Shown here: positions 1,847-6,714 of the stretch, piece by piece | Layout: the number at the start of each line of letters is the position of its first letter | Position numbering within the stretch: the stretch's first letter is position 1 | From: a virus | Lineage: Duplodnaviria; Caudoviricetes | Virus record (IMG/VR): IMGVR_UViG_3300032305_002766 | Span: 15,366 to 79,365 of that record | Strand: one strand, 5' to 3' | Length of the DNA stretch: 64,000 nucleotides | The notes under the pieces: generated by a model | Seen by the model: only the letters and a program-made list of their open reading frames with translations | Databases searched by the model: none | What the model was told of the DNA's origin: nothing | Made by a program: the position numbers and the translations under genes

Positions 1847-2587
1847 TTATTTATTACCTTTTAAACTTCCGCTGTTTCCTGTGGTTCCTAAAATAACTCC
1901 ATTTTCGGCTGCATCTTCATAATATGCTACTAAATCATCTACAATAGAATCTCTATGGTTTTGTTTCAATTTAATAGCAGACATGTTTTTAATTTTACGA
2001 GCCGCTATATATAAAAATCTAAATCCTGATTCGCGTTTTTGTTTTAAATCCACCTGAGCATCATCACCACATATGATCATTTTGGAATGTAATCCTATAC
2101 GGGTTACAATCATTTCCATTTGTTCATGGGTAACGTTTTGGGCTTCATCTACAATAATACAAGAATCTAAAAATGTTCTTCCTCGCATAAATGATAAAGG
2201 TACAATTTCTATTTTACCATCTTCTATAAGCTTTTCTACTTTTTCTTTATCATATAAAGCATACATGTTTTGGTAAATTGGCTGTACCCATGGGTCCATT
2301 TTTTCGCGTAAATCACCAGGTAAAAAACCTATATCTTCTTTAGAAACGGTTGGCCGCGTAATGATTATCTTCTCAAAGTGGCGTCGTAATAAACCGTCTA
2401 AAGCCACTTGACACGCTAATAATGTTTTACCTGATCCTGCGGATCCGGCTAACATTGTTAATGTGTTGTTTAATATTTCATCTTTTGCTAATTTTTGTTC
2501 TTCGTTTAAAGGTATTTTGAATTTAATAGGATTTTTCACTATTCTTTTTTCTCTAAATACCTCATCGGTATGATGGTTTGATGCCAT
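1847..2587 (-). CDS. phoH: PhoH family ATPase
   Basis: Walker A GSAGSGKT, IIITRP, GFLPGDL, RGRTF, IIVDEAQN and GDxxQxDL motifs. Confidence 0.95.
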   Translation of the reverse strand: MASNHHTDEVFREKRIVKNPIKFKIPLNEEQKLAKDEILNNTLTMLAGSAGSGKTLLACQVALDGLLRRHFEKIIITRPTVSKEDIGFLPGDLREKMDPWVQPIYQNMYALYDKEKVEKLIEDGKIEIVPLSFMRGRTFLDSCIIVDEAQNVTHEQMEMIVTRIGLHSKMIICGDDAQVDLKQKRESGFRFLYIAARKIKNMSAIKLKQNHRDSIVDDLVAYYEDAAENGVILGTTGNSGSLKGNK

Positions 2588-3308
2588 GATTTTTAAAATT
2601 GATTTTTACTAATTTATCTATTCCTGCATTAACATGCATTGCATCGTCTAAGATTAGGTTAAAATCATATCTATCATCCAACGGGAGTACTAGATCGACT
2701 TGTGACCCCCATCTAATTAACGAAAATCGTTCATTTTGAGCAAATGTATCATATTGTTGATTTGTAAACGGAGCAATAACGTTTACATCTTCATCAGCAA
2801 TTTGTATTAAATAATAAGTATAATCTAAAATAGGAGAATAAATTCTATTCCACATACGTTCATTATACTTCAAATATTCCATATTGGCTGGGTTGATTTT
2901 CTTATTAAGAATATCTTTTTCAACTGCTAACATTGGTTTGTTAGTTGATTGAATTGCCTCTAATGGTTTGTAAGTTAAAACACCCCCATAAGGTATACGA
3001 TTAATATGTACATCATAAAATGACATAAAAATTCCTATAACTAAAGAAGGTTTATTGTAATCTTTATCCCCTACTACATCTTGTAATGTATAATTTAACC
3101 CTTTGATTTCAACAATGGGTTCAGTAGGATCTTTAATGAATTTTTGATATAAAATAGTACCATCAGCAGGTGAATAAAAATGCTCATGATCTATAAAATT
3201 TGGGCGAATTGGATCTCTAAAAAAGAAAGTATTACTTAAATCACCTACTGGAAGTTTTTGTAATTGTTTAACTTCACCGTTTAACCATTCTTCTAATGTT
3301 TGAGCCAT
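2562..3308 (-). CDS. psd: Phosphatidylserine decarboxylase-fold (pyruvoyl-dependent) proenzyme, apparently soluble
   Basis: FFRDPxR, SPADG, FMSxYDVHINRxP, NER and the self-cleavage motif IRWGSQVDLVLP (compare RFGSRVD); no N-terminal membrane helix. Confidence 0.85.
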   Translation of the reverse strand: MAQTLEEWLNGEVKQLQKLPVGDLSNTFFFRDPIRPNFIDHEHFYSPADGTILYQKFIKDPTEPIVEIKGLNYTLQDVVGDKDYNKPSLVIGIFMSFYDVHINRIPYGGVLTYKPLEAIQSTNKPMLAVEKDILNKKINPANMEYLKYNERMWNRIYSPILDYTYYLIQIADEDVNVIAPFTNQQYDTFAQNERFSLIRWGSQVDLVLPLDDRYDFNLILDDAMHVNAGIDKLVKINFKNHGIKPSYR

Positions 3309-4222
3309 TATAACAAAATTTTATTGTGATCAACTCTATTCAAATGCATTATCATACAGCTCAACATAGCTCCTGATTTCATGTATTCTGATAGATTAAA
3401 TATAACTGGTTCCATACCTGCATTACTGCATATTTTTTCTAGGGTTTCAAGTTTATGTTTTTCTCCCTCATAATATTCATCTGTTTTTTTCATTTCAGAA
3501 ATATTTGAAGCACATAAAATCATATTACCTAAACGTACTGAATTTGTAAGACCACCTAAAGCATCTTCAACATCGATATTAATAATTTCAGTATGTTTTT
3601 CTATTTGTTTGATTTCTGACTCATCATATAATTCAGTACAAATTAATGTTTGTTCAGGATTTAAAGCAAAAATAGAACAATCTAAATGATATAGATATTC
3701 ATCAACCATAGCTACTTTAATGATATCCATTCCATAATTTTCTTCCATCCACTCATATGTTTTTATATTGGAACGGATTCCGTATCCACCTATATAAACA
3801 TTGTCATATAAATACTTTATATCAGCTTCTCCCTCCCATTTGTACGGAGATATGGCTGTTTTATAGCCCATTTGTTTAAAAAACGTTTCCCCAACTAATT
3901 CTTCACCTACTCGTGGGTGGGAAGTAAAATTAGATAATAAAATATGGTTTTCGTCTTTAATGTGGGGTAAATAAAGACCTAAATTAGCTACATAAACTTG
4001 ATCTTGAAAATTACCTTCTGAAGGTAGAAGATGAACTAAAGATCCGCCTGCTATAAAATTATACAGGTCCATAAATTGTTTGTAAGCTTTGGGTCTATTA
4101 ATTTGGAGTTCTTCATCATTTAATTCCTGCATCCAAATATTATTGGGGTCTGCTGTAGATAAAGAAAAGGGAAAATTCATTACGTAACTTTGTAATGGTA
4201 ACTGACTTGGTGTTTCTTTCAT
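3308..4222 (-). CDS. Amidinotransferase/guanidino-modifying (DDAH / arginine dihydrolase-like) enzyme
   Basis: QDQVYVANLG, WEGEAD, GYGIRS, YHLDC and C-terminal EYMKSGAMLSC (catalytic Cys) match the pentein fold motifs. Confidence 0.85.
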   Translation of the reverse strand: MKETPSQLPLQSYVMNFPFSLSTADPNNIWMQELNDEELQINRPKAYKQFMDLYNFIAGGSLVHLLPSEGNFQDQVYVANLGLYLPHIKDENHILLSNFTSHPRVGEELVGETFFKQMGYKTAISPYKWEGEADIKYLYDNVYIGGYGIRSNIKTYEWMEENYGMDIIKVAMVDEYLYHLDCSIFALNPEQTLICTELYDESEIKQIEKHTEIINIDVEDALGGLTNSVRLGNMILCASNISEMKKTDEYYEGEKHKLETLEKICSNAGMEPVIFNLSEYMKSGAMLSCMIMHLNRVDHNKILL

Positions 4223-4277: not shown

Positions 4278-4859
4278 CTAAATTTTATCACTTTTTTCTC
4301 TATTTTGAGTTTTTTCTAGGGGTTGTGTATTAAGATAATGAAAACAAATGTATAAATTTTCTTCAATATTTAAATCAAAAGAAGCTATAGGCTTTATATG
4401 ATCTATTTCCCAATATTCTCCATAATTATCCCAATTAATTTTTGGTGTAAACTGGGATTCAAGGTATTGAGTATATTCTTCCATATTACACCCCAAATAT
4501 TCTATAGTGCGATCTTTTTTAAGTGTATTGTATAATTTTAAAGCTTCTGATATTCTAGCTGCTGTTACGTGTTTGATTCTAAATCCAATATCTGTGTGAT
4601 ACTTGTTTTTATTCCATTCTCTATAAAGTTCCTTTTTAGTATGATAATGGTTTGTACAATATTGATTAAAATATTTTTTATTTTCTTTTCGGTATTCTTT
4701 ATAGTAATCTGTTCTAGATTCTTTACTAGTTTTATACCATATATCACTTAGAGGTTTTAAACAAGATCTACAATATATATGTTTACCATCTTTACTATCT
4801 TTTTTATTATAAAACTCCGTAATAGGTTGTTCTATATTACATTTTTTACATTTTTTCAT
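4278..4859 (-). CDS. HNH homing endonuclease with N-terminal CxxC zinc motif
   Basis: CKKC...CRSC N-terminus, LGC...W.NYG..WEIDHIKP...CFHYLNTQPL...NREKSD HNH core. Start placed at MKKCKKC (4859) because the promoter-like motif abuts the upstream ATG. Confidence 0.85.
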   Translation of the reverse strand: MKKCKKCNIEQPITEFYNKKDSKDGKHIYCRSCLKPLSDIWYKTSKESRTDYYKEYRKENKKYFNQYCTNHYHTKKELYREWNKNKYHTDIGFRIKHVTAARISEALKLYNTLKKDRTIEYLGCNMEEYTQYLESQFTPKINWDNYGEYWEIDHIKPIASFDLNIEENLYICFHYLNTQPLEKTQNREKSDKI

Positions 4860-4883
4860 ATTGTCCCGAATATTCGTGTCCAT

Positions 4884-4891
4884 TATACATA
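4884..4891 (-). promoter_or_regulatory. Variant upstream motif (sense TATGTATA) driving the HNH gene
   Basis: Lies immediately after the MCP terminator and 24 nt before the HNH start. Confidence 0.45.
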
Positions 4892-4893
4892 TG

Positions 4894-4920
4894 AAAAAGA
4901 GCCGCATTTTTGCGGCTCTT
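4894..4920 (-). terminator. Rho-independent terminator after major capsid gene
   Basis: AAGAGCCGCA/TGCGGCTCTT inverted repeat followed by a T run on the minus strand. Confidence 0.8.
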
Positions 4921-4947: not shown

Positions 4948-6714
4948 TTAGATGGTATTCAATCCACTGATATAAATTTTTCCATAAAACTCAGGGCGCA
5001 ACATTTTCTTAGCGTAACGAGTCAAGAGACCTTTACGTGGTGTAAATGTTTCTGGATCGTACACTAATGGTGTCATGATTAATGGAATGTATGGAGAGAA
5101 TACAGCTCCTGTTTCAAGGAATTGTGAACCTCTATAACCCATTAAGATCAAGTTTTCAGTCATGTAAGGGTTTTTGTAAACTTTGTAACGACCGTTAACT
5201 GAACCTACTTTTTGTACACCGAAAGCATATTCCATTTGATCAGCTTCACCGTTGCTTGTAGAAGCAAATCCTGGGATTGACTCAAGGATAGTTGCTACTG
5301 TAGGAGAAGTTACTAAGAAATTAGCACCTCCACGAAGAGTTAACTGGTGGATTCTGTTGCTTAATTTTTGGATCTTAGTACCTAATGTTTGGAACCATTG
5401 ACCTTGTGTATTGTAGAATGCTTGAGTAGTTGTAGCAGCCGAAAATGTATTTGAAGATGGTTGGAAAACTGTGTTATTAATAGCTGACCAATATTCAGTA
5501 CCTGCAGCAGCATCTTCAATCAACATATCTAAGATTTCCAAATCAATTTCCATTGAAATGTACTCAGACATGATGTTTGTTAATTCAGCTTCAGCATCGA
5601 TGTTTTGGTAAGCAGCTAAATCTTGTGCAAACTCAGGAGTCCATACAGCTTTCAATTTCTTGGTTTTAGCTGTAATTGGTTGTGATTGCATTTTAACGTT
5701 AATCTCAGGGATAACGATTTGTTGAGTTGAAGCGTTATTTGGTACTGAGAAAGAACCTGAAGCTTCGAAATCACCACGACCTGAGAATAAACCTGAACCA
5801 CCGTTGTTACCTGAAGTTACGTTAATACCATCTTGTGAAGTTGATTTTTGGTATAATACAGTAATTCTAGATCCTGATTGAGGAATTGCAGCAAAGTTTG
5901 AAGATCCTGTAAAGAAGAAGCTAATTGTACTGTTAGTATAGTTGTACGTAGTAAATGCAGGTAGCAATGTAGTTGCTGTAAAGTTTGAACCTGAAGTTAA
6001 TACAAAACCTCTAACTGCATCCTGATCAAATGATGGGATAGTAGAGTTAGAAGAAGTGATCGTAAATTTGTAAACTTGACCTGAAGCAACAGATGCTGAG
6101 AAGGTAGAGTCAAAGTTTAACTCAGCCCAAGAAGCAGATATGATTGAACCTGTACCAGCAGCAGTAGTAGTTAAAGCATTTGTTAATGAAGCTGACATCT
6201 CTAACAATGAAGAAGAGAATTGGTTGGTTGAATACGTAAAGCGTCCTGTTCCGTAAAGACCACCTGTAGTATCTAAAGTTTCAAATGGGAACTGAGAAGC
6301 AGTATCTCTAGTACCATAAAGTGATTGACCTGCAGTAAATGGATTCTTAGTGTTACCATATTGGAAATCTAAGAAGAACACTAGACCTGAAGGCATGTTC
6401 ATTGGTTGAACTGAAACGAATTCTTTAGCTACGATAGTACCGAATACTTTACGTACTAAAGGAAGAGCGATACCAGCCCAGTTCTCACCTTGTCCACCTG
6501 AAGTGTAATATGAGTTAGAAGCGATTTCATTTGATTCAGTTACTAATTGTTTTGCTTGGTTTTCTAACAAAAGTGACATATTGTTTTTGTCCATTTCTGT
6601 TAGTCCTTCCAACAAACCAGTTCTAGCCCATTTTCCGGCTAATTTGGCAGCATCACTTTGAAGTGATTTCCAAGATCCTGCTGCACTTTCTAAAAGTTGT
6701 TGTACTTGTGACAT
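4948..6714 (-). CDS. gp23: Major capsid protein, T4 gp23-like, with a large Ser/Thr/Gly-rich insertion
   Basis: LVRKVFGTIVAKEFVSVQPMNMPSGLVFFLDF, AKTKKLKAVWTPEFAQDLAAYQNIDAEAELTNIMSEYISMEIDLEIL, YSPYIPL-like FSPYIPL and F.PRKGLLTRY motifs. Confidence 0.95.
   Translation of the reverse strand: MSQVQQLLESAAGSWKSLQSDAAKLAGKWARTGLLEGLTEMDKNNMSLLLENQAKQLVTESNEIASNSYYTSGGQGENWAGIALPLVRKVFGTIVAKEFVSVQPMNMPSGLVFFLDFQYGNTKNPFTAGQSLYGTRDTASQFPFETLDTTGGLYGTGRFTYSTNQFSSSLLEMSASLTNALTTTAAGTGSIISASWAELNFDSTFSASVASGQVYKFTITSSNSTIPSFDQDAVRGFVLTSGSNFTATTLLPAFTTYNYTNSTISFFFTGSSNFAAIPQSGSRITVLYQKSTSQDGINVTSGNNGGSGLFSGRGDFEASGSFSVPNNASTQQIVIPEINVKMQSQPITAKTKKLKAVWTPEFAQDLAAYQNIDAEAELTNIMSEYISMEIDLEILDMLIEDAAAGTEYWSAINNTVFQPSSNTFSAATTTQAFYNTQGQWFQTLGTKIQKLSNRIHQLTLRGGANFLVTSPTVATILESIPGFASTSNGEADQMEYAFGVQKVGSVNGRYKVYKNPYMTENLILMGYRGSQFLETGAVFSPYIPLIMTPLVYDPETFTPRKGLLTRYAKKMLRPEFYGKIYISGLNTI

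What the first reader, a model, noticed from the sequence alone, without database searches (positions are those of the whole stretch)
2562..4222. PSD-fold decarboxylase coupled to an arginine-dihydrolase-like enzyme: possible new putrescine (or DNA-modification) route
Seen in sequence: the two genes overlap by 1 nt and lie just downstream of the capsid operon. The PSD homologue keeps the GS self-cleavage motif but lacks a membrane anchor. The partner's motifs (DQVYVANLG, EGEAD, YHLD, EYMKSGAMLSC) resemble the ArgZ/AgrE/DDAH group. Established: ArgZ-type enzymes convert Arg to ornithine, pyruvoyl enzymes decarboxylate amino acids, and polyamines neutralise packaged phage DNA. Inference: Arg->Orn->putrescine via a PSD-fold ornithine decarboxylase, which would be a new activity for this fold. 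An alternative is decarboxylation and amidino transfer on amino-acid-modified DNA bases.
Basis: inference. Interest (0 to 1): 0.78.

Follow-up and report, generated by a model that had tools for sequence, protein, structure and literature searches.

The report
Phage arginine-to-putrescine enzyme pair
Next to its capsid gene, this uncultured ~160-kb phage carries two coupled enzyme genes, an arginine-dihydrolase-like enzyme and a soluble relative of the lipid enzyme phosphatidylserine decarboxylase, that travel together through unrelated phages and several bacterial phyla and most likely turn arginine into the polyamine putrescine by a route found in no paper I could search.

Summary
Two minus-strand genes, 3308-4222 and 2562-3308, share one base (TAATG). 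The upstream protein models at pLDDT 97 and matches the arginine dihydrolases ArgZ/AgrE far better than DDAH or amidinotransferases. It keeps the residues that align with ArgZ N71, E118, H168 and C264, and two arginines that probably bind the substrate carboxylate. The downstream protein belongs to PF02666. It keeps the Asp-His-Ser self-cleavage triad and has no membrane segment.

The pair is a real functional unit. It provides two of only four ORFs shared by three otherwise unrelated phage genomes. In bacteria of at least four phyla it sits next to an exporter gene. In rare phage relatives a SpeD-type pyruvoyl decarboxylase replaces the PSD-like partner.

My best reading is Arg -> Orn -> putrescine, at about 0.5 and entirely inferred. 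The novelty claim needs correcting: PSD-fold decarboxylases of free amino acids are already known (Aspergillus arginine decarboxylase, PsiD). Only an ornithine activity and this pairing would be new. The DNA-modification alternative is disfavoured.

This scan has already flagged the same pair in several other genomes. Follow-up agents there reached the same reading, which is not independent evidence.

The parts
3308..4222 (-). ArgZ/AgrE-like guanidino-group-modifying enzyme (304 aa, P0002). I predict it is an arginine dihydrolase.
   Evidence: NCBIfam Arg_dihydro 2.6e-20, DDAH 5.5e-20, ArgZ 1.5e-19, all far below their cut-offs. phrog_12759 3e-65. PDB phmmer hits ArgZ/AgrE at 5e-12. AF2 pLDDT 97.1. 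Foldseek ArgZ/AgrE E~1e-22, TM 0.80-0.90.
3356..3358 (-). Codon of Cys289, the predicted nucleophile (aligns with ArgZ/AgrE C264)
   Evidence: Invariant in 66 diverse homologues, together with R104, E107, H179, D181 and G284.
3686..3688 (-). Codon of His179 (aligns with ArgZ/AgrE H168) in the YHLD motif
   Evidence: Alignment to 6lrf/6jv0. Invariant.
2562..3308 (-). Soluble PSD-fold pyruvoyl proenzyme (248 aa, P0001). I predict it is a decarboxylase of a basic amino acid, with ornithine favoured.
   Evidence: PF02666 2e-23. phrog_12670 2e-44. All NCBIfam PSD equivalogs are far below cut-off. AF2 pLDDT 81.8. VIA Z 11 to E. coli PSD, 9.4 to Ao-ADC1, 9.3 to PsiD.
2703..2708 (-). Codons of Gly201-Ser202, the predicted self-cleavage site. 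Ser202 would become the pyruvoyl group, giving a 201-aa beta chain and a 47-aa alpha chain.
   Evidence: G201, S202 and Q203 are invariant in 16 lineage representatives, as are D49 (SPADG) and H101 (DVH), which correspond to the E. coli PSD triad.
3306..3310 (-). TAATG stop/start overlap, consistent with translational coupling
   Evidence: The same tight junction (0-12 nt gap by tblastn) occurs in 80 of 80 related contigs.
1847..2587 (-). PhoH-like ATPase. It overlaps the end of the PSD-like gene. It is syntenic only within this phage clade.
   Evidence: PF02562 5.6e-65. It follows the pair in nearly all of the 80 relatives, but not in the Campylobacter or Bacteroides phages or in the bacterial loci.
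4278..4907 (-). HNH/endonuclease VII-like ORF, a variable insertion between the capsid gene and the pair
   Evidence: phrog_1035 1e-14. Found in only 5 of 80 related loci.
4897..4920 (-). Intrinsic-terminator-like hairpin just after the capsid gene
   Evidence: 10-bp stem with 6 GC pairs and a T tail.
4948..6714 (-). Major head protein
   Evidence: phrog_138 2.4e-69. 76% nucleotide identity to the Flavobacterium phage immuto capsid gene.

Best explanation
The two genes encode a self-contained, two-step route from L-arginine to putrescine. Step 1 (inferred): the 304-aa enzyme works like the cyanobacterial arginine dihydrolases ArgZ/AgrE. Cys289 attacks the guanidino carbon of free L-arginine, which is held by its alpha-carboxylate through Arg104 and Arg150. 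Two hydrolytic rounds release 2 NH3 and CO2 and leave L-ornithine. Step 2 (inferred): the 248-aa protein cleaves itself between Gly201 and Ser202, using the PSD-type Asp49/His101/Ser202 triad, to make a pyruvoyl cofactor. As a soluble enzyme it decarboxylates ornithine to putrescine. Translational coupling (TAATG) would give matched amounts of the two enzymes. During infection the pair would top up the polyamine needed for translation and for neutralising packaged DNA. The likely hosts are Bacteroidota; from my own knowledge, not tested here, Bacteroidota and Campylobacter make putrescine only by the longer agmatine route. What is shown: the folds, the conserved catalytic residues, gene coupling, co-inheritance and partner displacement. 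What is inferred: the substrates, the products and the benefit to the phage.
For: (1) The AT model has pLDDT 97.1. Its best structural matches are ArgZ/AgrE (E~1e-22, TM 0.80-0.90, rmsd 2.2-3.0 A), well ahead of DDAH (1e-13), amidinotransferases (1e-10 to 1e-12) and C. jejuni agmatine deiminase (1.6e-9). (2) Through the alignment, N80=N71 (the residue mutated in the solved N71S intermediate-trapping structure 6juz), E130=E118, H179=H168, and by position C289=C264. R104, H179, D181 and C289 are invariant, and D74, E130 and R150 are 65/66 conserved. The R104/R150 spacing matches the DDAH carboxylate-binding arginines (my memory of the literature), which argues for an amino-acid substrate rather than agmatine. 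(3) The PSD-like protein keeps the self-cleavage triad, has no membrane segment, and fails every PSD equivalog cut-off. Xenorhabdus, Photorhabdus and an acidobacterium each keep a canonical PSD elsewhere in the genome as well as this paralogue. (4) PSD-fold enzymes do decarboxylate free amino acids: Ao-ADC1 acts on Arg and PsiD on Trp. (5) Co-inheritance: the pair supplies two of only four ORFs shared by a complete relative of this phage (G001), Campylobacter phage NCTC12673 and Bacteroides phage SJC03, and they are the best conserved of the four (1e-67; 1e-44 to 1e-49). The closest cultured phage, immuto, has neither gene. The pair is adjacent in about 19 bacterial loci from at least four phyla. 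Pairwise identities of the two proteins correlate at r=0.82 over 11 lineages. (6) Partner displacement: relatives of the AT are fused to, or directly follow, a SpeD/AdoMetDC-type pyruvoyl decarboxylase (P0315; L223 with P0395 next to P0264). Phage SpeD homologues are experimentally ornithine or arginine decarboxylases. The same study found no arginase in phages and calls ornithine supply limiting (PMC9992855). (7) Other neighbours of AT-family genes also belong to arginine or polyamine metabolism: a PLP-dependent Orn/Arg decarboxylase, an agmatine-deiminase-family gene and a glutamine-synthetase-like gene.
Against: There are no biochemical data for any member of either subfamily. The AT scores 70-73 bits against cut-offs of 300-1025 for the ArgZ, Arg_dihydro and DDAH models and is only about 21% identical to ArgZ, so the chemistry could differ (deiminase, or transferase). 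The only basic-amino-acid activity proven for the PSD fold is arginine decarboxylase, not ornithine decarboxylase. The model is about equally distant from PSD, Ao-ADC1 and PsiD (Z 11, 9.4, 9.3). Two related bacterial clusters (L192, L193) also carry a PLP-dependent Orn/Arg decarboxylase, which would be redundant with a PSD-fold ODC. The adjacent exporters in bacteria suggest a secreted product that need not be putrescine. The SpeD-type partner is rare: three cases were seen. One fused copy (P0346) lacks the processing serine, and the other (P0315) has Phe at the R150 position. I found no downstream polyamine genes in these phage genomes.
Confidence: 0.5

Rival explanations
1. The order and substrates are reversed. 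The PSD-like enzyme is an arginine decarboxylase (as Ao-ADC1 is) that makes agmatine. The GME enzyme hydrolyses agmatine to N-carbamoylputrescine or straight to putrescine.
For: The only proven basic-amino-acid activity of the PSD fold is arginine decarboxylation. In bacteria the gene order is PSD-like then AT. An AT-family gene lies beside an agmatine-deiminase-family gene in a cyanobacterial MAG. An earlier scan note reports a phage trio that includes an agmatine-deiminase-like gene.
Against: R104 and R150, at the positions of the carboxylate-binding arginines of DDAH/ArgZ-type enzymes, are 66/66 and 65/66 conserved. The AT model is far closer to ArgZ/AgrE (1e-22) than to C. jejuni agmatine deiminase (1.6e-9).
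Confidence: 0.13
2. The GME enzyme stops at citrulline (a deiminase). The PSD-like enzyme decarboxylates citrulline to N-carbamoylputrescine, and the host N-carbamoylputrescine amidohydrolase finishes the conversion to putrescine.
For: DDAH, which releases citrulline, is the second closest family. From my own knowledge, not tested here, Campylobacter and Bacteroides hosts have the amidohydrolase.
Against: The ArgZ-specific Asn (N80 = N71) is kept in 59 of 66 homologues, where DDAH, from memory, has Asp. No citrulline decarboxylase is known in any fold. The phage genomes carry no CN_hydrolase gene.
Confidence: 0.07
3. The GME enzyme is a true amidinotransferase. Together with the decarboxylase it builds a guanidino-amine, for example by amidinating the amine that decarboxylation produces. 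Bacteria export this compound, and phages use it for a purpose still unknown.
For: Annotators call it an amidinotransferase. In bacteria the pair is always followed by an ABC or MATE exporter, as in small biosynthetic clusters. L192 and L193 add a Cys-to-Asp paralogue, a PLP-dependent decarboxylase and a YqcI/YcgG protein. The polyamine amidinotransferase HsvA appears among the structural matches.
Against: Amidinotransferases (SxtG, AGAT, HsvA) match about ten orders of magnitude worse than ArgZ/AgrE and are 60-100 residues longer. No Pfam or NCBIfam amidinotransferase model is hit.
Confidence: 0.12
4. The pair acts on nucleotides or DNA. It could help replace dG with deoxyinosine, as in Fletchervirus, or trim amino-acid-decorated bases.
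For: Every phage genome in the collection that has the pair is either a Fletchervirus, whose dG is fully replaced by dI through an unknown pathway (PMC13091555), or a Bacteroides phage. In the Bacteroides phages the pair sits among dUTPase, dCTP-deaminase-like and IMPDH/GMP-reductase-like genes. Guanine C2 is formally a guanidino carbon. Both genes carry inteins in some relatives, which is typical of replication and nucleotide enzymes.
Against: The same pair lies next to exporters, among housekeeping genes, in Xenorhabdus and other bacterial chromosomes. The GMP-reductase-like gene is absent from NCTC12673 and from complete relatives of this phage. ThyA-type genes are absent from four of the five genomes searched. 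The conserved carboxylate-binding arginines and the pyruvoyl chemistry both need a free alpha-amino acid.
Confidence: 0.05
5. The PSD-like protein is an ordinary phosphatidylserine decarboxylase that boosts phosphatidylethanolamine synthesis, and the neighbouring gene is unrelated.
For: The PF02666 match and the database names. AMG catalogues list viral psd as a lipid gene (PMC11360552).
Against: It has no membrane segment. It scores 69 bits or less against PSD equivalog cut-offs of 111-377. The bacteria that carry it also have a canonical PSD. It is strictly co-inherited with the ArgZ-like gene. Ao-ADC1, another soluble family member, has no PSD activity.
Confidence: 0.03

Closest known systems
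ArgZ (Synechocystis Sll1336) and AgrE (Anabaena Alr4995) arginine dihydrolases, N-terminal domain (PDB 6JUY-6JV1, 6LRF-6LRH)
   Same: Same GME/pentein fold (TM 0.80-0.90). Same Cys/His/Asp/Glu set and the ArgZ-type Asn (N71 equivalent). Similar length to the catalytic domain.
   Different: Only about 21% identical. Scores 70-73 bits against family cut-offs of 450 and 1025. A stand-alone protein without the ornithine cyclodeaminase/LOR-SDH-type C-terminal domain. Paired with a decarboxylase instead.
Dimethylarginine dimethylaminohydrolase (DDAH; P. aeruginosa 1H70, human DDAH-1)
   Same: The short GME fold, the catalytic Cys and His, and two arginines at matching spacing.
   Different: The structural match is about nine orders of magnitude weaker. 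The sequence has VAN where DDAH, from memory, has VED.
Bacterial phosphatidylserine decarboxylase (E. coli Psd, PDB 6L06, 7CNW-7CNZ)
   Same: PF02666 fold. The SPADG Asp, the D-x-H His and the G-S cleavage site for pyruvoyl formation.
   Different: No membrane-binding segment. It has DVHxNR in place of DYHRxH. It fails all PSD equivalog models. It coexists with a canonical PSD in bacterial genomes and is always partnered with the ArgZ-like gene.
Ao-ADC1, the PSD-fold pyruvoyl arginine decarboxylase of Aspergillus oryzae (PDB 9JER, 9JF5), and PsiD, the tryptophan decarboxylase (8X4Q)
   Same: Soluble PSD-family enzymes that decarboxylate free amino acids. Structural Z is 9.3-9.4.
   Different: They are fungal, 350-480 aa, and have extra N-terminal helical regions. 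There is no detectable sequence match to them with the family profile at E<=1. The substrate here is unknown, and I favour ornithine.
Phage SpeD/AdoMetDC-derived pyruvoyl ornithine and arginine decarboxylases (Li et al., PNAS 2023, PMC9992855), and the arginase + ODC route of giant viruses
   Same: The same pathway logic: a virus-encoded supply of ornithine and its pyruvoyl-dependent decarboxylation to putrescine. SpeD-type genes replace the PSD-like partner next to AT homologues in some phages.
   Different: The decarboxylase has a different fold, and a GME dihydrolase stands in for the manganese arginase. That study found no arginase in phages and does not mention this pair.

Membership tests
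ArgZ/AgrE arginine dihydrolase (NCBIfam NF052232 Arg_dihydro, NF052231 bifunc_ArgZ) | Score above the curated family cut-off | tested here: not met
   72.8 bits against 450, and 69.7 against 1025.
ArgZ/AgrE arginine dihydrolase | GME alpha/beta-propeller fold closest to the solved ArgZ/AgrE structures | tested here: met
   Model pLDDT 97.1. The top ten Foldseek matches are all ArgZ/AgrE, with E~1e-22 and TM 0.80-0.90.
ArgZ/AgrE arginine dihydrolase | Catalytic Cys264, His168 and Glu118, and the Asn71 linked to the second hydrolytic step | tested here: met
   N80, E130 and H179 align with N71, E118 and H168. C289 sits in the C-terminal ...SC motif. Conservation is 59/66, 65/66, 66/66 and 66/66. 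The residue roles come from PDB entry titles and my memory of the papers, which the paper tools did not hold.
ArgZ/AgrE arginine dihydrolase | Conversion of L-arginine to L-ornithine + 2 NH3 + CO2 | not testable with these tools
   Needs an enzyme assay.
Phosphatidylserine decarboxylase (PF02666; NCBIfam PRK05305-type, TIGR00163/00164) | The Pfam domain, and the self-cleavage triad with a G-S site | tested here: met
   PF02666 83.5 bits against a cut-off of 22. D49, H101, G201 and S202 are invariant. The family profile hits E. coli PSD at 4e-12. VIA Z is 11.
Phosphatidylserine decarboxylase | Score above an equivalog cut-off | tested here: not met
   The best score is 69.4 bits against 183. 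All 14 models are below cut-off.
Phosphatidylserine decarboxylase | A membrane anchor or membrane-binding hydrophobic helices | tested here: not met
   Maximum hydropathy over 19 residues is 0.95. The N-terminal helices are polar.
Phosphatidylserine decarboxylase | It is the cell's housekeeping PE-synthesis gene | tested here: not met
   Two Xenorhabdus genomes, a Photorhabdus genome and an acidobacterial genome each have a canonical PSD (140-211 bits) plus this paralogue (about 95-108 bits where intact) beside the AT gene.
PSD-fold amino-acid decarboxylases (Ao-ADC1, PsiD) | A soluble PF02666 enzyme with a pyruvoyl site and structural similarity to 9JER/8X4Q | tested here: inconclusive
   Z is 9.4 and 9.3, tied with PSD within about 1.5. 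There is no sequence-level match at E<=1. The substrate is unknown.
Amidinotransferases (AGAT, StrB1, SxtG, HsvA) | Closest fold and family-model match | tested here: not met
   Foldseek E is 4e-12 to 3e-10, against 1e-22 for ArgZ/AgrE. There is no Pfam or NCBIfam amidinotransferase hit. Transfer chemistry itself cannot be tested here.
Known anti-phage defence systems (PADLOC) | A match to any defence-system protein model | tested here: not met
   No hit for either protein or for their Xenorhabdus homologues. The ABC protein gives only generic ATPase matches.

The most novel reading that the evidence does not exclude
The PSD-like protein is an ornithine decarboxylase built on the phosphatidylserine-decarboxylase fold, which would be a fourth fold for this reaction. 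Together with a stand-alone ArgZ-like dihydrolase it forms an undescribed two-enzyme arginine-to-putrescine pathway. That pathway has spread horizontally through thousands of phage lineages (Flavobacteria-type, Bacteroides, Campylobacter Fletchervirus) and, coupled to exporters, through bacteria such as Xenorhabdus, Photorhabdus, Acidobacteria and Actinomycetota.
Probability: 0.45. Interest if true: 0.7.

Novelty: new variant of a known kind. Interest (0 to 1): 0.6.

Why it matters
Phages need polyamines for replication, and many carry polyamine genes. The published survey of viral polyamine enzymes found no arginase in phages and noted that ornithine supply limits putrescine synthesis (PMC9992855). 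This pair would fill that gap with two non-canonical enzymes.

It would also re-annotate thousands of viral 'psd' and 'DDAH/amidinotransferase' genes, which AMG catalogues currently count as lipid or creatine metabolism. It would add a substrate to the PSD fold. It would give a testable function to a conserved three-gene island with an exporter in Xenorhabdus, Photorhabdus and soil bacteria.

It also gives a function to two conserved Campylobacter Fletchervirus genes. These phages are candidates for biocontrol.

Tried and rejected
- **Link to deoxyinosine DNA.** An IMPDH/GMP-reductase-like gene lies next to the pair in Bacteroides phage SJC03. It is absent from NCTC12673 and from three near-complete relatives of this phage, so I dropped it as a general partner.
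- **Other polyamine genes.** I searched the carrier phage genomes for PF02784, PF03435, PF00795 and PF02675 and found none.
- **ThyA-type hydroxymethylase (PF00303).** Present only in one relative, G002.
- **PSD-like/AT fusion proteins.** None among the eight longer PSD-like forms. These are intein-bearing, C-terminally extended or polyvalent proteins.
- **Recurrent promoter motif upstream of the AT gene.** Not enriched. Sigma-70-like hits are at or below chance.
- **Literature.** Searches for the pair found nothing relevant. The ArgZ and AgrE structure papers are not held.
- **Genome scans with broad alignments.** A three-sequence alignment worked.
- **Ralstonia and Xanthomonas phage hits to the AT.** The one hit in each never appeared in a listing, so they were not examined.
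- **PADLOC.** No defence-family match.
Full report
**What is there.** The window is part of a 79-kb IMG/VR viral contig estimated at 49% complete, with about 30% G+C. Its capsid gene is 76% identical at the nucleotide level to that of the 160-kb Flavobacterium phage immuto. On the minus strand the order is:
- major head protein, 4948-6714 (phrog_138)
- a strong terminator-like hairpin, 4920-4897
- an HNH/endonuclease VII-like ORF, 4278-4907
- a 304-aa ORF, 3308-4222 (P0002, called AT below)
- a 248-aa ORF, 2562-3308 (P0001, called PSD-like below)
- PhoH, 1847-2587

The AT stop and the PSD-like start share one base (TAATG). The one correction is that a terminator and a mobile HNH gene separate the pair from the capsid gene. 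The HNH gene is present in only 5 of 80 relatives.

**The upstream enzyme.** Pfam gives no hit. NCBIfam gives Arg_dihydro, DDAH and ArgZ at about 1e-20, but at 70-73 bits against cut-offs of 300-1025. PHROGs places it in phrog_12759, of unknown function. The only solved relatives by sequence are ArgZ (Sll1336) and AgrE (Alr4995), at 5e-12.

An AlphaFold2 model built on 66 diverse homologues has pLDDT 97.1. Its ten best Foldseek matches are all ArgZ/AgrE (E~1e-22, TM 0.80-0.90, rmsd 2.2-3.0 A). DDAH follows at 1e-13, amidinotransferases (SxtG, AGAT, HsvA) at 1e-10 to 1e-12, and C. jejuni agmatine deiminase at 1.6e-9.

Counting along the alignment gives N80=N71, R104=R90, E130=E118, R150=R139, H179=H168 and D181=D170. 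C289 sits in the C-terminal ...SC motif at the place of C264. N71 is the residue whose Ser mutant traps the covalent intermediate (title of PDB entry 6juz). Across the 66 homologues, R104, E107, H179, D181, G284 and C289 are invariant. D74, E130 and R150 are 65/66, and N80 is 59/66. The spacing of R104 and R150 matches the two arginines that hold the substrate alpha-carboxylate in DDAH-type enzymes. That point rests on my memory of the literature, because the ArgZ and AgrE papers were not held.

So the protein works like an ArgZ-type hydrolase of an arginine-like amino acid. It is not a member of the curated ArgZ family.

**The downstream enzyme.**
- It matches PF02666 at 2e-23 and fails all 14 NCBIfam PSD models (69 bits or less against cut-offs of 111-377).
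- A 16-sequence alignment across phage and bacterial lineages shows D49 (SPADG), H101 (DVH) and G201-S202-Q203 invariant. The family profile aligns these to the E. coli PSD motifs at 4e-12.
- Self-cleavage would give a 201-aa beta chain and a 47-aa alpha chain. There is no hydrophobic segment.
- The model (pLDDT 81.8) matches the E. coli PSD beta chain (Z 11). It also matches two soluble family members that decarboxylate free amino acids: Aspergillus oryzae arginine decarboxylase Ao-ADC1 (Z 9.4) and the tryptophan decarboxylase PsiD (Z 9.3).
- Ao-ADC1 is pyruvoyl-dependent, has no PSD activity, and was crystallised as a Schiff base with agmatine (PMC12904898).

Amino-acid decarboxylation by this fold is known. 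Ornithine as the substrate would be new.

**Are the two genes a unit?** Both families are very common in metagenomes. They have 1765 and 2421 clusters at 90% identity with E<=1e-5. The AT has 911 representatives at 50% identity.
- In all 80 IMG/VR relatives fetched (76-90% identity) the order is AT, PSD-like, PhoH. That is a single clade, so it counts once.
- Independent evidence comes from the phage collection. Both proteins occur in the same two groups: about 40 Campylobacter Fletchervirus records, where the genes lie 43 kb apart, and six Bacteroides thetaiotaomicron phages, where they are adjacent.
- An all-ORF comparison of a complete relative (G001, 164 kb), NCTC12673 and SJC03 finds only four ORFs common to all three. 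These are ribonucleotide reductase and ThyX (both weak matches, named by my reading of the sequences rather than by a family scan), AT (1e-67) and PSD-like (1e-44 to 1e-49).
- Phage immuto has neither gene.
- Diverse metagenomic representatives again show the two genes adjacent, in either order.

**In bacteria.** A scan of one genome per prokaryotic species found 28 loci. In about 19 of them the PSD-like gene directly precedes the AT gene.
- An ABC half-transporter follows in eight Xenorhabdus species, in Photorhabdus tasmaniensis and in two proteobacterial MAGs (Methylococcaceae and Pseudomonadota).
- A MATE transporter follows in the three Acidobacteria loci and in one Actinomycetota locus.
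- In X. budapestensis the flanking genes are housekeeping (QueF, PpnN, a 5'-3' exonuclease).
- Those genomes keep a canonical PSD elsewhere.
- Pairwise identities of the two proteins correlate across 11 lineages (r=0.82). The points are not independent.
- The window's proteins are closer to several of the bacterial versions (43-53%) than to the Campylobacter or Bacteroides phage versions (36-42%).

I infer repeated horizontal transfer of the pair as a unit.

**What the partner swap says.** Three relatives of the AT are linked to a different pyruvoyl decarboxylase fold:
- P0315 has an N-terminal AdoMet_dc domain (PF02675, 3.5e-8) that keeps a T-S-H processing motif.
- P0346 is its 37%-identical homologue but lacks the processing serine.
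- In phage contig L223 a stand-alone SpeD-like gene (P0395, phrog_3125) lies directly upstream of an AT-InPase fusion.

Phage SpeD homologues have been shown to be ornithine or arginine decarboxylases. The same study found no arginase in phages and called ornithine supply limiting, while giant viruses use arginase plus ODC (PMC9992855). The genomes that carry the PSD-like gene have no SpeD-like gene. Other neighbours of AT-family genes are a PLP-dependent Orn/Arg decarboxylase (L192, L193), an agmatine-deiminase-family gene (L211), and a glutamine-synthetase-like gene with a MATE transporter (L212). The recurring theme is arginine, ornithine and polyamine chemistry.

**Mechanism and odds.**

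| Reading | Odds |
|---|---|
| Arg -> Orn by the ArgZ-like enzyme, then Orn -> putrescine by the self-processed PSD-like enzyme | ~0.5 |
| PSD-like as arginine decarboxylase, with the AT acting on agmatine | 0.13 |
| A true amidinotransferase making an exported guanidino-amine | 0.12 |
| Deiminase plus citrulline decarboxylase | 0.07 |
| A nucleotide or DNA role | 0.05 |
| Ordinary lipid PSD | 0.03 |

- Points for the reversed route: the Ao-ADC1 precedent and the bacterial gene order. Point against: the conserved carboxylate-binding arginines and the poor match to agmatine deiminase.
- The exporters and the extended L192/L193 cluster keep the amidinotransferase reading alive.
- The nucleotide or DNA reading is tempting. 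Fletchervirus DNA has dI in place of dG by an unknown pathway (PMC13091555), and SJC03 places the pair among nucleotide genes. It is undercut by the bacterial exporter islands and by the lack of any consistent nucleotide partner.

No substrate or product is shown here. The folds, catalytic residues, gene coupling and co-inheritance are.

**Novelty.** I found no paper that treats the pair. The viral polyamine survey and its bacterial sequel mention neither family. An ocean AMG catalogue treats viral psd as a lipid gene.

Each element has a precedent: the ArgZ dihydrolase, a PSD-fold amino-acid decarboxylase, viral Arg -> Orn -> putrescine, and pyruvoyl ODCs in phages. I therefore rate it a new variant of a known kind.

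This scan has flagged the same pair in several other genomes, and follow-up agents reached the same reading. Those are AI notes, not independent support.
- the three-genome ORF comparison
- the SpeD-type displacement
- the second-paralogue test in bacterial genomes
- the Ao-ADC1/PsiD correction to the novelty claim

**Limits.** Physical association and expression are therefore untested.

Noticed in passing
L002:6801-8283 (Bacteroides phage SJC03, MT074146.1 144438-145920): Directly after the AT/PSD-like pair, SJC03 encodes a dCTP-deaminase/dUTPase-like protein and an IMPDH/GMP-reductase-family protein (PF00478, 2.9e-27). A second dUTPase lies three genes upstream of the AT gene. A phage GMP-reductase-like enzyme could point to unusual purine (dI-type) nucleotide metabolism in these Bacteroides phages.
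   Followed up: partly
P0309, P0380, P0384, P0339 (AT homologues); P0396, P0402 (PSD-like homologues): Both families carry LAGLIDADG-type insertions in some metagenomic relatives. Intein splice domains were detected in P0309 and P0396. In P0402 the insertion lies immediately before the catalytic DVH motif.
   Followed up: partly
window 4278-4907 (-): An HNH/endonuclease VII-like ORF sits between the capsid terminator and the AT gene. It is present in only 5 of 80 related contigs, so it behaves like a mobile homing endonuclease.
   Followed up: partly
L200-L206, L214 (Xenorhabdus spp.), L209 (Photorhabdus tasmaniensis): A conserved three-gene island (PSD-like, AT, ABC exporter) lies among housekeeping genes. 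In P. tasmaniensis the PSD-like gene is split into two pieces around a 345-aa ORF on the opposite strand.
   Followed up: partly
L192:1-7610 and L193:4558-10406: An extended cluster: PSD-like, AT, ABC exporter, a PLP-dependent Orn/Arg/DAP decarboxylase and a 354-372-aa unknown protein. In L192 there is also an AT paralogue with Asp in place of the catalytic Cys (P0333) and a YqcI/YcgG-family protein. It looks like a small biosynthetic cluster for a modified arginine-derived compound.
   Followed up: no
P0398 (1114 aa, metagenomic): A PSD-like domain sits at the N-terminus of a polyvalent-type protein that also carries an ADP-ribosyltransferase domain (PF03496) and a ParB-like nuclease domain (PF02195).
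   Followed up: no
P0264 / L223:3987-5309: An AT homologue is fused at its C-terminus to an InPase domain (PF18823, 1e-26). It lies in a phage contig, directly after a SpeD-like gene.
   Followed up: no
G001:C1:30845-32780 versus SJC03 164874-166773: The Flavobacteria-type phage relative and the Bacteroides phage share a 544-aa protein at 49% identity and a neighbouring ~90-aa protein. By size and order these look like GroEL/GroES-type chaperonins. I did not check this against a family library.
   Followed up: no
G002:C1:44160-45206: A ThyA-family gene in one complete relative matches the Pfam model in two pieces within a single 378-aa open frame, which suggests an insertion of about 40 residues. 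The other relatives searched lack ThyA; G001 has a ThyX-like ORF (motif read by eye, not checked against a family library).
   Followed up: no
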